Positions 15,179 to 16,491 of a stretch of DNA of 64,000 nt are shown one piece after another (the stretch's first letter is position 1; every line of letters begins with the position of its first letter). The position numbers and the translations under genes are program-made. Source of the stretch: Shigella phage Sf14; the sequence record MF327003. One strand, written 5' to 3'. The notes below the pieces were generated by a model. The model was given only the letters and a program-made list of their open reading frames with translations, was not told where the DNA came from and searched no databases.

Positions 15179-15327
15179 AATCCTCTTTGCAGTGACTTAT
15201 GGAGCTAACCAGTCGTCCCATGAGTGCCGATGAGTTTCTTGAGCATGATTCTAGATTAGCTTACTAAGAGACAACTCTACAAACCCTTTAGCAAGGTTTG
15301 CGTAGGTTACTGCAAAGATGATTTAAT

Positions 15328-15403
15328 GGAAGTGTAGCAGAATGGTGATGCGGCAGACTTTTAATCTGACAGGCGACGGGTTCGAATCCCTCCACTTCTA
15401 CCA
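15328..15403 (+). tRNA. tRNA-Lys (TTT)
   Basis: acceptor GGAAGTG/CACTTCT, anticodon loop CTTTTAA, CCA. Confidence 0.75.
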
Positions 15404-15407
15404 ATAT

Positions 15408-15484
15408 GGTTCAGTCGCAGATAAGGTAATGCAAGGGTTTCATAAGCCCTATGAATGTGGGTTCGATTCCCACCTGAACCTCCA
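15408..15484 (+). tRNA. tRNA-Met (CAT)
   Basis: acceptor GGTTCAG/CTGAACC perfect, anticodon loop TTCATAA, T-arm GTGGG/CCCAC. Confidence 0.75.
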
Positions 15485-15486
15485 AT

Positions 15487-15562
15487 GCTGGTATAGTTAA
15501 GAAGGTTATAACACTCCCCTGATAAGGGAATATCGGTGGTTCGATTCCACCTACCAGTACCA
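15487..15562 (+). tRNA. tRNA-Ile (GAT)
   Basis: D-stem GTTA/TAAC, anticodon loop CTGATAA, T-arm GGTGG/CCACC, CCA. Confidence 0.75.
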
Positions 15563-15577
15563 AATTTCATAAAGTTG

Positions 15578-15606
15578 TTGACATTCAGATGTGACCACTT
15601 TAAGAT
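15578..15606 (+). promoter_or_regulatory. internal promoter TTGACA-N17-TAAGAT within tRNA island
   Basis: -35 15578-15583, -10 15601-15606. Confidence 0.55.
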
Positions 15607-15777
15607 AACCTTAGTTTTCGTTAGCGTAGCGTCTATTTTAAAAACTTAAAAATAAATGCAAACGATAATGTTTTTCTGGCAGTAGCTTAATAGGCTAAAC
15701 ACCAGCAGGGTATTCCAACTCCCTGTTAAAGAATTTGGCGTACTAGCCCACGGTATGATTAATAAAGTGGGCATCTT

Positions 15778-15805
15778 TAAGGGTTTTCTAAGAGAGCCTT
15801 TAAAG
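15778..15805 (+). ncRNA. hairpin motif copy B (diverged, TAAGGGTTTTCTAAGAGAGCCTTTAAA)
   Basis: related to copies A and C, immediately upstream of tRNA-Arg. Confidence 0.35.
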
Positions 15806-15810
15806 ATAAT

Positions 15811-15887
15811 GCACCCTTAGTTCAAACGGATAGAGCAACGGTCTTCTAAACCGTCAGTTACAGGTTCGAATCCTGTAGGGTGTGCCA
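15811..15887 (+). tRNA. tRNA-Arg (TCT)
   Basis: anticodon stem ACGGT/ACCGT loop CTTCTAA, CCA. Confidence 0.75.
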
Positions 15888-16052
15888 GTTAGTTAGCAGA
15901 TTACTATGACGGCCTTTATGGGTCTCCGCATTGACTTGAAAGAGTCAATCTCATAAGGAGGTGGTCTGTATCTCATGTTTTCCAGAACATGTAAATAATC
16001 TGAGAAGAAGCTTAACAGTGTTGAGATAACAGGGTAAGCTTCGAAATATAGT

Positions 16053-16135
16053 ATGGGACGATGTTAAGACACTAAGGCATGTGCGACGGCCTCCAAAACC
16101 GTTTCAAATGGGTTCGAATCCTACGTCCCATGCCA
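16053..16135 (+). tRNA. tRNA-Trp (CCA), atypical (extra nucleotides between acceptor and D stem)
   Basis: acceptor ATGGGAC/GTCCCAT perfect, anticodon loop CTCCAAA; 83 nt. Confidence 0.5.
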
Positions 16136-16148
16136 AAGTCTTATTAGG

Positions 16149-16236
16149 GGTAGGTAGCGGCTAATGGAAGCCAAACTGTCTTGAAAACAGTTGCCATTGT
16201 AGAGATACGGTGAGGGTTCGACTCCTTTATCTACCG
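16149..16236 (+). tRNA. tRNA-Ser (TGA), type II
   Basis: anticodon stem ACTGT/ACAGT loop CTTGAAA, ~20-nt variable arm. Confidence 0.65.
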
Positions 16237-16491
16237 CCTAATAAGATTTAAAGCTGAGACTCTTTGTTCGAGCAAGTGTTTCAGGTTTCCTCTTCGTGTA
16301 TTGGCGTACACGGCACTGGTAAAGCACCTAGCAGGTGTCACGGAGAAGAGATAGTATCAAGCTCTCCAAAGGTTCTAGTCACCGGATTAAGCAAGACTAT
16401 GCAAAGGCCAATAGGTCTTTTTAGAGAATTGTTAAGGCATTTGATACCATTGTTGCTTTGGCGTCTTAGCAGTTCTCTACAAAGATTTAAT

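What the first reader, a model, noticed from the sequence alone, without database searches (positions are those of the whole stretch)
15186..16491. Additional non-tRNA structured segments within the tRNA island
15186-15316 is closed by an 8-bp long-range inverted repeat (TTTGCAGT/ACTGCAAA). 15607-15777 and 16240-16491 contain several GC hairpins (GTGTA..TACAC, CACCT..AGGTG, CAGGG..CCCTG, GCCCAC..GTGGGC) but no tRNA T-loop. These tRNA-free gaps of 130-250 nt are larger than needed for spacing and may encode further small RNAs.
Basis: seen in the sequence. Interest (0 to 1): 0.45.

Follow-up and report, generated by a model that had tools for sequence, protein, structure and literature searches.

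The report
Phage tmRNA-like RNA lacking tRNA domain
One of the three tRNA-free gaps encodes a roughly 165-base RNA that looks like the message half of bacterial tmRNA, with an intact degradation-tag reading frame but no tRNA-like half; it is shared unannotated by many unrelated enterobacterial phages, and the other two gaps hold conserved structured RNAs beside a phage Ro60 gene.

Summary

- **Gap B (15611-15780)** is the main result. A consensus sigma-70 promoter precedes an RNA with:
  - the tmRNA motif AUAAAU|GCA;
  - a 10-codon tag (ANDNVFLAVA) whose stop codon sits in a hairpin loop;
  - two covariation-supported pseudoknots.

  It has no acceptor stem, T arm or CCA end. ARAGORN, Rfam and public annotations all miss it. 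It aligns with the coding piece of genuine two-piece phage tmRNAs.
- **Distribution of B.** Copies occur in Ounavirinae, Ackermannviridae, Schitoviridae, several siphophage groups, lambdoid prophages and ~110-kb plasmids. It matches 578 phage records and 321 of 5426 E. coli genomes.
- **Evidence the tag is read.** Thirteen tag variants keep frame, length and stop, and variation is concentrated at third codon positions.
- **5' leader.** The near-invariant leader GUUUUCG is complementary to host ssrA tag codons 3-6.
- **Likely function (inferred).** B exploits or blocks host trans-translation.
- **Gaps A and C** are Ounavirinae-only structured RNAs. They lie downstream of a Ro60 orthologue that I confirmed by fold, so they are Y-RNA-like candidates. 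This is unproven.

The parts
15578..15606 (+). Sigma-70-type promoter of element B (TTGACA, 17 nt, TAAGAT); it ends 7 nt before the conserved leader
   Evidence: scores it 10/12, one of only three + strand sites in the island scoring at least 10/12. Equivalent TTGACA promoters sit just upstream of the element in Sa179lw, Bas80, ZC2, Sashavirus, EaTu10 and IMG/VR contigs.
15614..15621 (+). Near-invariant 5' leader GUUUUCGU, predicted single-stranded
   Evidence: GTTTTCG is present in all 37 close copies found; the divergent copy L033/L079 has GUUCGUC instead. With its flanks it is complementary to E. coli ssrA nt 96-108 (GACGAAAACUACG, tag codons 3-6) over 7-12 nt in 22 of 23 leader variants; the 23rd has only the 7-nt CGAAAAC match by eye.
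15636..15651 (+). Hairpin P1 (UUUUAA-AAAC-UUAAAA) directly upstream of the resume region; other lineages have CUUUG...CAAAG or UUAUG...CAUAA here
   Evidence: Helix 1 has 2 pairs with compensatory change and 89% of cells paired. The window's shorter version was read directly from the sequence.
15652..15657 (+). AUAAAU, the -6 to -1 region before the resume codon; it keeps A-U-A at -6 to -4 like E. coli A84 U85 A86
   Evidence: ATAAATGCAAACGA is almost invariant in A1, A3 and A4. It is shared with genuine two-piece phage tmRNAs. The comparison with E. coli uses L145.
15658..15693 (+). tmRNA-type tag reading frame: GCA AAC GAT AAT GTT TTT CTG GCA GTA GCT TAA TAG = ANDNVFLAVA**
   Evidence: All 37 copies have 10 codons plus a stop (TAA, TGA or TAG). 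There are 13 distinct peptides fitting A-N-[DE]-x-x-[FYVM]-L-[AM]-[VA]-A. Third-position entropy is 0.945 against 0.49 and 0.43 at the first two positions.
15676..15705 (+). Hairpin H5 equivalent; its loop holds the stop codons (CUGGCAGUAGC UUAAUAG GCUAAACACCAG)
   Evidence: Helices 2-3; for example, G-C changes to A-U in 9 sequences at the fourth pair.
15706..15738 (+). Pseudoknot PK2: stem CAGGG/CCCUG (15706-15710, 15721-15725) and loop CCAA (15715-15718) pairing with UUGG (15735-15738)
   Evidence: helix 4 has 3 of 5 pairs compensatory and 97% paired; helix 5 has 4 of 4 pairs compensatory and 96% paired. It is homologous to the single pseudoknot after the tag in two-piece phage tmRNAs.
15739..15772 (+). 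Pseudoknot PK3: CGUAC (15739-15743) with GUAUG (15753-15757), and GCCCAC (15746-15751) with GUGGGC (15767-15772); conserved loop AUUAAUAA
   Evidence: helix 6 is 99.4% paired with 2 compensatory pairs; helix 7 has 4 of 4 pairs compensatory.
15611..15780 (+). Whole element B: a tmRNA-like RNA without a tRNA-like domain
   Evidence: Covariance model R1 scores it 158.5 bits, E 1e-42. Sub-threshold Rfam hits go only to tmRNA families, in the window and in every other phage copy tested. ARAGORN finds no tmRNA here.
15179..15323 (+). Element A: a 22-bp terminal stem (15179-15201 with 15301-15323) enclosing three hairpins; it ends 4 nt before tRNA-Lys
   Evidence: z-score -3.84 with 0 of 200 shuffles as stable. 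99.7% of cells are paired and 5 pairs are compensatory, against none in the slid controls. It is found in 58 Ounavirinae records only.
16239..16491 (+). Element C: a ~250-nt conserved RNA-like element with a nearly invariant core (about 16320-16440) and a long 3' hairpin
   Evidence: 252 records, Ounavirinae only apart from 2 oddly labelled records. The alignment has 85% mean identity with an invariant core. z-score -2.86. Only 3 compensatory pairs, so structural support is weak.
12570..13985 (+). Context: a Ro60 (TROVE + vWA) orthologue immediately upstream of the tRNA island
   Evidence: Pfam gives DUF2828 + DUF7788. PHROG 850 is 'RNA-binding protein'. The AlphaFold2 model has pLDDT 86.9. 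The top 11 Foldseek PDB hits are all Ro60/TROVE structures, E 8e-9 to 2e-6.

Best explanation
The range holds three separate, conserved, non-tRNA RNA genes.

**Element B (15611-15780, + strand).** B is transcribed from its own sigma-70 promoter. It descends from the coding piece of a two-piece phage tmRNA. It keeps:
- the resume-codon context AUAAAU|GCA;
- a translatable 10-codon degradation-tag frame (ANDNVFLAVA);
- the stop-codon hairpin;
- two H-type pseudoknots.

It has lost the whole tRNA-like domain, so it cannot be aminoacylated.

*Shown:* anatomy, homology, covariation, codon-like constraint on the tag, and spread across unrelated enterobacterial phages, prophages and ~110-kb plasmids.

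*Inferred, about 0.3 for the exact mechanism:* B works through the host's own alanyl-tmRNA/SmpB. Its near-invariant 5' leader GUUUUCG(U) pairs with host ssrA tag codons 3-6, which tethers B to host tmRNA on a rescued ribosome. The phage frame is then read in place of, or after the first codons of, the host frame; the two share GCA AAC GA. Rescued proteins would receive a phage-specified C-terminal tag ending AVA or MAA instead of LAA. At the least, B interferes with host tagging.

**Elements A and C.** These are Ounavirinae-specific structured RNAs. They are most likely ligands of, or co-workers with, the Ro60 orthologue encoded just upstream, that is, Y-RNA-like. A is the better candidate.
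For: **B: the tmRNA features are present and under selection.**
- Alignments from 11 and then 35 phage copies show the conserved tag frame and hairpins.
- In the structure test 89.9% of cells are paired, against 37-46% when partners are slid. 18 pairs are compensatory and 0 of 500 shuffles reach this. Both pseudoknots are supported.
- All 37 tags are 10 codons plus a stop. The stop varies among TAA, TGA and TAG, and synonymous variation is concentrated at third positions.
- The only Rfam similarities are sub-threshold hits to tmRNA families, in the window and in every other phage copy tested.
- Model R1 also finds permuted tmRNAs that ARAGORN calls as genuine, with tags ANDNAFLMAA and ANDERFLMAA. 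These share AUAAAUGCAAACGA, H5 and PK2 with B.

**B: no tRNA-like domain.**
- ARAGORN is negative.
- The complete 46.8-kb Sa179lw genome has no tRNA or tmRNA. It also has no CGAAAAC-N-CCA acceptor-strand partner for the leader in any tRNA-like context.

**B: independent transcription and distribution.**
- Promoters lie directly upstream in six lineages.
- It matches 578 phage records and 321 of 5426 E. coli genomes, never annotated.

**B: leader complementarity.** The leader matches verified E. coli ssrA.

**A and C.** Ro60 was confirmed by fold. A published homologue, Bas63 gp130, sits upstream of the same tRNA stretch (PMC11482910).
Against: **B**
- There are no expression data.
- No known mechanism lets a message domain that is not physically joined to a tRNA-like domain enter a rescued ribosome.
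- The leader/ssrA complementarity is short. A 10-mer match anywhere between the two RNAs has an expectation of about 0.06, and the match was noticed post hoc.
- It could not be tested for co-variation because all identified hosts share the same ssrA codons.
- A full-length duplex calculation was uninformative.
- The divergent copy L033/L079 has a different leader (GUUCGUC) and its host is unknown.

**A and C**
- The bacterial Ro60-binding motif GNCGAAN0-1G is absent from both.
- The Rfam YrlA model does not match them.
- C's structure has little covariation because its core does not vary.
Confidence: 0.55

Rival explanations
1. B is a decoy or inhibitor and is not translated. As a tmRNA message-domain mimic, it would titrate SmpB, ribosomal protein S1, RNase R or rescued ribosomes, and/or mask the host tag frame by antisense pairing. 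This would shut down or slow host trans-translation during infection.
For: - B has no tRNA-like domain, so it cannot start trans-translation itself.
- The leader is complementary to host ssrA codons 3-6.
- Strong promoters suggest abundant RNA.
Against: - A pure mimic does not explain codon-phase variation: third-position entropy is about twice that of the other positions.
- It does not explain an always-intact 10-codon frame with interchangeable stop codons.
- It does not explain a peptide pattern that keeps tag-like chemistry (AND..., an aromatic or hydrophobic residue at position 6, an Ala-rich end).
- The divergent copy has a 13-codon tag that still ends RLAA.
Confidence: 0.2
2. B is the coding half of a complete two-piece tmRNA. 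Its acceptor piece would be encoded elsewhere, in the phage or supplied by a host RNA other than tmRNA, and was missed here.
For: - Its closest relatives are permuted two-piece tmRNAs.
- GUUUUCG followed by U is the right length for a 7-nt acceptor strand plus U8.
Against: - The complete Sa179lw genome has no tRNA-like gene, no T-loop-containing non-coding candidate, and no CGAAAAC-N-CCA.
- The complement ACGAAAAC occurs nowhere else in the 64-kb window.
- A GUUUUCG/CGAAAAC stem lacks G3:U70, which to my knowledge is required for alanine charging.
- The alignment indicates the element starts inside PK1, not at an acceptor strand.
Confidence: 0.1
3. The gaps are decaying DNA with no function: an ssrA fragment captured from a host, dead tRNAs, or scars of homing-endonuclease insertions.
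For: - Fragments of ssrA in prophages have been attributed to imprecise excision (PMC9004378).
- HNH endonuclease genes are inserted in this island in relatives.
- tRNA-like debris occurs nearby.
Against: - B resembles E. coli ssrA only at the motif level.
- B carries its own promoter, shows compensatory changes in seven helices, and is maintained in strictly virulent phages of at least five families.
- A and C are more conserved than their flanks, and A shows compensatory changes.
Confidence: 0.03
4. B encodes a small protein on the minus strand, the 42-aa ORF at 15646-15774, which some pipelines annotate as hypothetical.
For: - The ORF boundaries nearly coincide with the conserved core.
- ESh20 and Bas80 carry hypothetical-protein calls over this region.
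- Long stop-free minus-strand stretches occur in many copies.
Against: - The reading frame is not conserved: homologues need frameshifts relative to the window ORF.
- EaTu10, L063 and L101 have stops in the corresponding frames.
- Variation follows base-pairing and the plus-strand tag frame.
Confidence: 0.02

Closest known systems
Two-piece (circularly permuted) tmRNA, coding piece: Rfam tmRNA_permuted RF04321 and beta_tmRNA RF01850, including phage-encoded examples such as phage Melnitz
   Same: - Same resume context (AAAAUAAAU|GCA AAC GA).
- Tag of 10-13 codons ending in Ala-rich residues.
- Stop codon in the H5 hairpin loop.
- An H-type pseudoknot follows, with the same UAAC-type linker.
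- Weak Rfam hits to exactly these models.
   Different: - No 5' acceptor strand (GGGGCUG), no D-loop analogue GGUUUCGAC, no helix 2.
- No acceptor piece with a T arm and CCA.
- The RNA starts inside what is PK1 in those tmRNAs.
- It carries a new near-invariant leader GUUUUCG and a second pseudoknot with the loop AUUAAUAA.
One-piece bacterial tmRNA (ssrA, Rfam RF00023), e.g. E. coli
   Same: - Tag ANDxxxLAVA or ANDxxxLMAA against ANDENYALAA.
- A-U-A at -6 to -4.
- GCAAACGA identical.
- Hairpin over the stop codons and pseudoknots downstream.
   Different: - About 165 nt instead of 363.
- No tRNA-like domain, so no alanylation and no canonical SmpB-bound entry into the A site.
- Below the Rfam gathering score and invisible to ARAGORN.
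Reduced mitochondrial tmRNA of jakobids (tRNA-like domain only)
   Same: A naturally halved tmRNA, showing that the two functional halves can be separated in evolution (PMC3590771, abstract listed; the details are from my own knowledge).
   Different: It is the opposite half: jakobids keep the tRNA-like domain and lose the message, whereas B keeps the message and loses the tRNA-like domain.
Prophage-encoded anti-sRNAs of pathogenic E. coli (AgvB, AsxR), which pair with and neutralise core-genome small RNAs
   Same: A phage RNA with a short conserved single-stranded segment complementary to a functional single-stranded region of a host RNA. Some copies lie in lambdoid prophage late regions. The comparison itself rests on my own knowledge.
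   Different: For B the pairing is untested. B also carries a complete tag-coding module, which those sponges lack.
Y RNAs / YrlA bound by Ro60 (Rsr), Rfam RF02553, for elements A and C
   Same: - Encoded next to a Ro60 orthologue.
- A is about 145 nt, with its 5' and 3' ends forming a long stem around an internal multiloop.
- Y RNAs are described as 80-130 nt with a long stem and a large internal loop (PMC4201824).
   Different: - No GNCGAAN0-1G or GGUCCGA Ro-binding motif in A or C.
- No tRNA-like T/D module.
- No Rfam YrlA match.
- C is about 250 nt.
Stable RNAs C and D (species 1 and 2) in the phage T4 tRNA cluster
   Same: Non-tRNA stable RNAs embedded in a phage tRNA gene cluster, with unknown function (from my own knowledge).
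   Different: No sequence relationship was tested or seen. The T4 RNAs have no tag frame.

Membership tests
tmRNA (one-piece or two-piece) | Tag reading frame that starts at a resume codon without a start codon or Shine-Dalgarno sequence, is preceded by a conserved A/U-rich -6 to -1 region, and encodes an Ala-rich C-terminal degron | tested here: met
   AUAAAU|GCA AAC GAU ... GCU UAA. There are 37 intact frames and 13 peptide variants fitting A-N-[DE]-x-x-[FYVM]-L-[AM]-[VA]-A, with codon-phase variation.
tmRNA (one-piece or two-piece) | Stop codon of the tag held in or next to a hairpin (H5), followed by pseudoknot(s) | tested here: met
   H5 and two H-type pseudoknots are supported by compensatory changes.
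tmRNA (one-piece or two-piece) | tRNA-like domain: acceptor stem with G3:U70, T arm with a T loop, and a 3' CCA end (in cis, or on a paired acceptor piece) | tested here: not met
   - ARAGORN is negative on the window and on 10 other loci.
- There is no T loop in the element.
- The promoter abuts the leader.
- No partner exists in the complete Sa179lw genome.
tmRNA (one-piece or two-piece) | Scores at or above the Rfam gathering threshold for a tmRNA family | tested here: not met
   Best scores are 29.9 bits against a threshold of 47 (tmRNA_permuted), 20.3 against 50 (alpha_tmRNA) and 23.5 against 84 (beta_tmRNA).
tmRNA (one-piece or two-piece) | Binds SmpB and tags nascent chains on stalled ribosomes | not testable with these tools
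   Requires biochemistry or mass spectrometry.
Y RNA / YrlA (for A and C) | Gene adjacent to a Ro60 (TROVE) orthologue | tested here: met
   The Ro60 fold of the 12570-13985 product was confirmed. A lies 1.2 kb and C 2.3 kb downstream on the same strand.
Y RNA / YrlA (for A and C) | 5' and 3' ends pair into a long stem that encloses an internal loop or module | tested here: met
   Met for A: a 22-bp terminal stem, 100% of cells paired in 7 sequences. For C, only a 4-bp long-range helix was predicted and it never varies, so C is inconclusive.
Y RNA / YrlA (for A and C) | Ro60-binding motif in the 5' strand of the stem (GNCGAAN0-1G in bacteria, GGUCCGA in vertebrates; PMC4201824) | tested here: not met
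   A regular-expression search finds the motif in non-tRNA sequence only at 15105, inside the neighbouring repeat element and not in A, B or C.
Y RNA / YrlA (for A and C) | tRNA-like T and D arms (YrlA subfamily), or a match to Rfam RF02553 | tested here: not met
   No YrlA or tRNA hit lies in A or C at E up to 10.
Y RNA / YrlA (for A and C) | Physical association with Ro60 | not testable with these tools
   Needs immunoprecipitation of the phage Ro60.
tRNA or tRNA pseudogene | Cloverleaf with a T loop | tested here: not met
   No tRNA model hit lies within 15186-15316, 15607-15777 or 16240-16491.

The most novel reading that the evidence does not exclude
Enterobacterial phages of many unrelated lineages carry a mobile, stand-alone tmRNA message module that re-programmes host trans-translation. 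It would dock on host tmRNA through a leader complementary to the host tag codons. Ribosomes rescued by the host's tRNA-like domain and SmpB would then finish on the phage template, changing the fate of tagged proteins during infection. This would be the first case of trans-translation with a template not structurally joined to the tRNA-like domain, and the first viral takeover of the ribosome-rescue tag.
Probability: 0.25. Interest if true: 0.92.

Novelty: new variant of a known kind. Interest (0 to 1): 0.78.

Why it matters
tmRNA is defined by having a tRNA half and a message half in one particle. A conserved, promoter-driven message half that has lost the tRNA half yet keeps a selectively maintained tag frame has two possible meanings. 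Either the frame is read by an unknown route, or phages have turned a tmRNA fragment into a tool against host ribosome rescue.

- **Scale.** The element is present in hundreds of sequenced phages, including phage-therapy candidates of the Felix O1, Vi1-like, N4-like and T1-like kinds. It is also in Shiga-toxin-type lambdoid prophage late regions and in about 6% of complete E. coli genomes. No annotation pipeline reports it.
- **Testability.** Look for the predicted tag on non-stop reporters, and mutate the leader.
- **A and C.** Together with the nearby repeat elements, they are concrete candidates for the Y RNAs that were only speculated to accompany the Felixounavirus Ro60-like anti-defence protein.

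Tried and rejected
1. **Minus-strand 42-aa ORF under B.** Rejected: the frames are not conserved and stops appear in relatives.
2. **29-aa GTG ORF in C's core (16335-16424).** Rejected: there is no Shine-Dalgarno sequence and the 3' end is frame-breaking in relatives.
3. **22-aa ATG ORF in A.** There is no ribosome-binding site, and variation follows pairing.
4. **Known RNA family.** Rfam at gathering score and at E up to 10 gave only sub-threshold tmRNA-family hits for B, and nothing for A or C.
5. **Phage-encoded acceptor piece.** None in the window or in the complete Sa179lw genome.
6. **Leader as a remnant of the tmRNA D-loop (GGUUUCGAC).** Alignment with genuine two-piece tmRNAs instead places the start of B inside PK1.
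7. **Leader pairing with B's own tag or the P1 loop.** Checked by eye; not conserved across variants.
8. **RNAduplex of full-length B against E. coli ssrA with shuffles.** Uninformative, because it ignores intramolecular structure.
9. **Pattern scans.** The IMG/VR scan gave useful loci.
10. **Literature.** Searches for a phage tmRNA-like RNA, for the tag peptides and for the motif found nothing in the held library. Papers on these phages report 'no tmRNAs'.
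Full report
**What the window is.** The 4-kb tRNA island is 95-98% identical to Mooglevirus phages (Ounavirinae, Felix O1-like) such as Shigella phages Sf17, ESh20, Sf13 and Sf16, and Citrobacter phage Mordin. ARAGORN finds 25 tRNAs on the + strand between 14151 and 18762, and Rfam agrees. In Sf17 and ESh20 nothing credible is annotated in the three gaps; ESh20 has only automatic short 'hypothetical protein' calls. I call the gaps A (15186-15316), B (15607-15777) and C (16240-16491).

**Checking the observation.** The 8-bp closing repeat of A is the core of a 22-bp stem. All three fold better than dinucleotide shuffles:

| Gap | z-score | Shuffles folding as well |
|---|---|---|
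| A | -3.84 | 0 of 200 |
| B (nested pairs only) | -2.0 | 9 of 200 |
| C | -2.86 | 0 of 200 |

**Conservation.** Distant blastn against 50,697 phage records gave very different pictures.
- A occurs in 58 records, all Ounavirinae, at 87-100% identity.
- C occurs in 252 records, effectively all Ounavirinae, at 78-100%.
- B occurs in 578 records. Its core also matches phages with no other relationship to this one:
  - Ackermannviridae (Klebsiella KP6, May; E. coli FEC14; Salmonella SenALZ1);
  - Schitoviridae (Shigella B2, Salmonella UTK0001);
  - 46-48-kb siphophages (Sa179lw, Bas80, ZC2);
  - Sashavirus;
  - the 108-kb phage Cyrano;
  - Erwinia Kolesnikvirus.

In each fetched locus the match lies in unannotated DNA, or under a dubious ORF call, on the same strand as nearby tRNAs where there are any.

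**What B is.** Aligning 11 copies showed an almost invariant ATAAATGCAAACGA followed by hairpins with obvious compensatory changes. Read in frame from GCA, every copy encodes a 10-residue peptide followed by a stop codon that sits in a hairpin loop. In the window this is GCA AAC GAT AAT GTT TTT CTG GCA GTA GCT TAA TAG, giving ANDNVFLAVA. The E. coli ssrA tag is ANDENYALAA, and the nucleotides GCAAACGA are identical (E. coli sequence verified). The -6 to -4 positions are A-U-A, as in E. coli (A84 U85 A86).

A pattern scan of IMG/VR plus nhmmer raised the set to 37 distinct sequences.
- All have exactly 10 codons plus a stop, and the stop is TAA, TGA or TAG.
- The 13 peptide variants fit A-N-[DE]-x-x-[FYVM]-L-[AM]-[VA]-A.
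- Site entropy is 0.49, 0.43 and 0.945 at codon positions 1, 2 and 3.
- Leaving out the three free codons, it is 0.20, 0.26 and 0.74.

This is the signature of a translated frame, not only of an RNA motif.

**Structure of B.** I tested a hand-derived structure on a 35-sequence alignment. It has hairpin P1, the H5-like hairpin over the end of the tag, and two classical H-type pseudoknots.
- 89.9% of cells are paired, against 37-46% when the 3' partners are slid by 1-3 columns.
- 18 of 30 pairs have changes on both sides (103 cells).
- 0 of 500 shuffles reach any of the measures.
- The two pseudoknot-specific helices are 96% and 99% paired, with 4 and 2 compensatory pairs.

Window coordinates of all helices are given in the parts list.

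**Relation to tmRNA.**
- The only Rfam similarities are sub-threshold hits to tmRNA families, in the window and in each of the seven other phage loci scanned. These are tmRNA_permuted at 22-30 bits, alpha_tmRNA, beta_tmRNA positions 206-304, and tmRNA positions 83-140.
- A covariance model built from the 35 copies (R1) scores the window at 158 bits. It also picks up, at 20-33 bits, IMG/VR contigs in which ARAGORN calls bona fide permuted (two-piece) tmRNAs. Their tags are ANDNAFLMAA, ANDERFLMAA, ANDESAYLMAA and ANESVYRLAA.
- Those genes share AAAAUAAAUGCAAACGA, the tag, H5 and the following pseudoknot with B.
- Their coding piece begins GGGGCUG-acaag-GUUUCGAC, that is, an acceptor strand and a D-loop analogue. 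It is preceded by an acceptor piece ending in a T arm and CCA.

**B has none of the tRNA-like domain.**
- A consensus promoter lies directly upstream. In the window it is TTGACA, 17 nt, TAAGAT at 15578-15606.
- TTGACA-type promoters occupy the equivalent place in Sa179lw, Bas80, ZC2, Sashavirus, EaTu10 and other contigs.
- The alignment suggests the RNA starts inside what is PK1 in the two-piece genes.
- A more divergent copy (L033/L079) starts immediately after a tRNA-Arg and has a 13-codon tag, ANDDSFEVARLAA.
- ARAGORN finds no tmRNA in the window or in ten other loci.
- The complete Sa179lw genome has no tRNA-like gene and nothing that could pair with the leader as an acceptor strand.

B is therefore a tmRNA derivative without a tRNA-like domain. 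It fails a defining membership feature of tmRNA while clearly descending from one.

**The leader.** The 5' end GUUUUCG is invariant in all 37 close copies, although the adjoining hairpin varies freely. Its complement, CGAAAAC, lies in E. coli ssrA at nt 98-104, inside tag codons 3-6 (GAC GAA AAC UAC). With flanking bases the perfect complementarity is 7-12 nt in 22 of 23 leader variants. It extends on either side in different lineages; for example, ACGAAAACUACG in Erwinia phage EaTu10 and GACGAAAACUA in lambdoid copies. For a 10-mer the chance expectation of any match between the two RNAs is about 0.06, so this is suggestive rather than proven. It was found post hoc, and I could not test co-variation with host ssrA.

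**Distribution in bacteria.** B matches 321 of 5426 complete E. coli genomes: 97 places on chromosomes and 229 on plasmids. Most sampled rows are ~106-114-kb plasmids, and none is annotated.
- In strain E2865 it lies in a lambdoid prophage between the Q antiterminator gene and the holin gene, downstream of a promoter and terminator.
- On plasmid pEC881_2 it lies between a DNA ligase region and tRNA genes, as in phage Cyrano.
- In siphophages and lambdoid prophages B is part of a longer non-coding stretch of 400-500 nt. It is flanked by a recurring helix, ACAACAGGTAAGAGCATT...AGTGCTCTTTCCGTTGTGG, with variable inserts.

**How B most likely works.**
- *Shown:* B has the parts of tmRNA that are read by the ribosome and it keeps them under selection. 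It lacks the parts that deliver alanine and enter the A site. It is independently transcribed and has spread horizontally among phages of one host group.
- *Inferred:* it acts through the host trans-translation machinery.
- *My preferred reading (about 0.3 for the exact mechanism):* the leader tethers B to the host tmRNA message region. After the host tRNA-like domain and SmpB rescue a ribosome, the phage frame is used. It shares its first eight nucleotides and the upstream AUA with the host frame. Rescued proteins would then end in ...LAVA or ...LMAA rather than ...ALAA.
- *Main rival (0.2):* B is not translated and instead blocks or titrates the host system.
- *Lesser rivals:* an undetected acceptor partner (0.1), a functionless relic (0.03) and a minus-strand micro-protein (0.02).

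**A and C.**
- *Structure of A.* It is a 22-bp terminal stem (15179-15201 with 15301-15323) enclosing three hairpins. In seven sequences, 99.7% of cells are paired. Five pairs have compensatory changes, against none in the slid controls.
- *Structure of C.* It has a core of about 110 nt that is essentially invariant among Mooglevirus, Suspvirus and Felixounavirus, while its flanks differ by about 20%. Because the core does not vary, covariation support is weak: 3 pairs, reached by 29 of 500 shuffles.
- *Rfam and ORFs.* Neither element matches Rfam or has a convincing ORF.
- *The upstream gene.* The 471-aa product of 12570-13985 (DUF2828 + DUF7788; PHROG 850 'RNA-binding protein') is a Ro60 orthologue by fold.
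  - The AlphaFold2 model has pLDDT 86.9.
  - The 11 best Foldseek PDB matches are all Ro60/TROVE structures. They include Xenopus Ro, Deinococcus Rsr and Thermus phage phiLo Ro60.
- *Published homologue.* A preprint on the Felixounavirus Bas63 describes the homologous gp130 as Ro60-like and as a counter of the ppl defence gene. It speculates that some 'tRNA genes' downstream might be Y RNAs, without identifying any (PMC11482910).
- *Fit to Y RNAs.* A has the general Y-RNA architecture. However, neither A nor C has the reported Ro-binding motif GNCGAAN0-1G (PMC4201824). I therefore rate 'Ro60-associated RNA' as a lead, stronger for A than for C.

**Novelty.** Complete phage tmRNAs are known: about 2.3% of phage genomes, including two-piece forms (PMC9004378). 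I found no description of a tmRNA-like RNA without the tRNA-like domain, of these tag peptides or of this motif in the searchable library. There is no Rfam family for it and no annotation in GenBank or RefSeq records. Papers on related phages state that no tmRNA is present. Subscription-only literature and the tmRNA website could not be searched. I rate B as a new variant of a known kind, with high interest. A and C are new candidate members of a poorly defined kind.

Noticed in passing
window 12570-13985 (+): The 471-aa protein just upstream of the tRNA island is a Ro60 (TROVE + vWA, MIDAS-like DVSSS) orthologue by predicted fold. Its Bas63 homologue gp130 is reported as a counter of the ppl defence gene.
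   Followed up: yes
window 14312-14398, 14476-14560, 14950-15045, 15046-15185 (+): Four copies of a repeat family have conserved ends (ACAGAAGRCCnnUACAGCAARCA ... GGUCUGGU) that can pair around variable inserts. The fourth copy encloses a tRNA-like T-arm module (Rfam tRNA, 30 bits, 15058-15132). It also holds the only non-tRNA match to the Ro-binding motif GNCGAAN0-1G (GGCGAAGG at 15105). It is the best YrlA-like candidate next to the Ro60 gene.
   Followed up: partly
window ~14705-14795 (+): A tRNA-Tyr (GTA) with a long variable arm is missed by ARAGORN and scores only 22.8 bits in Rfam. It is annotated as tRNA-Tyr in Sf17 and as a pseudo-tRNA in other relatives.
   Followed up: partly
window ~16053-16136 (+), in the fourth gap 15888-16148: A tRNA-Trp(CCA)-like sequence has a good acceptor stem and CCA but an oversized D region and weak T and anticodon stems. 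ARAGORN misses it. Its 3' half aligns with the tRNA-Trp of Erwinia phage EaTu10.
   Followed up: partly
window 14932-14960, 15775-15806, 17652-17675 (+); also L007 ~1690-1705: A recurring short hairpin of the type AAGGGTTCTTACGAGAGTCCTTAAA sits between RNA genes, possibly a processing signal. In addition, B is flanked by the near-repeat TTTAAGATAA / TTTAAAGATAA.
   Followed up: no
L139 2870-3290; L004 1660-1760; L050, L041, L082, L063 (around the B copies): In lambdoid prophages and siphophages, B is bracketed by a recurring long-range helix, ACAACAGGTAAGAGCATT ... AGTGCTCTTTCCGTTGTGG. Its variable inserts are sometimes tRNA-like (T arm GGTTCGAATCC). It looks like a modular scaffold for non-coding cassettes in late-leader RNAs.
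   Followed up: partly
L003 (Klebsiella phage KP6) 2706-2919: An Rfam STnc100 sRNA match above the gathering score (49.7 against 47 bits) lies in an unannotated 2.6-kb stretch that also holds the B copy.
   Followed up: no
L136 1057-1461 (SUSP1); L138 1018-1431 (Seyj1-1); L144 1-40 (mistaenkt); feature lists: Relatives carry extra genes at varying positions in the same tRNA island. SUSP1 and mistaenkt have annotated HNH homing endonucleases, and several records list HNH endonucleases. Seyj1-1 has an unannotated ORF between tRNA-Arg and element C. The island is therefore a hot spot for mobile insertions.
   Followed up: no
window 17162-17371 (+): A 69-aa ORF with a Shine-Dalgarno sequence (AGGAG) lies between tRNA-Leu and tRNA-Arg and overlaps the start of tRNA-Arg(ACG). 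It is annotated as a hypothetical protein in Sf17, ESh20 and SUSP1.
   Followed up: no
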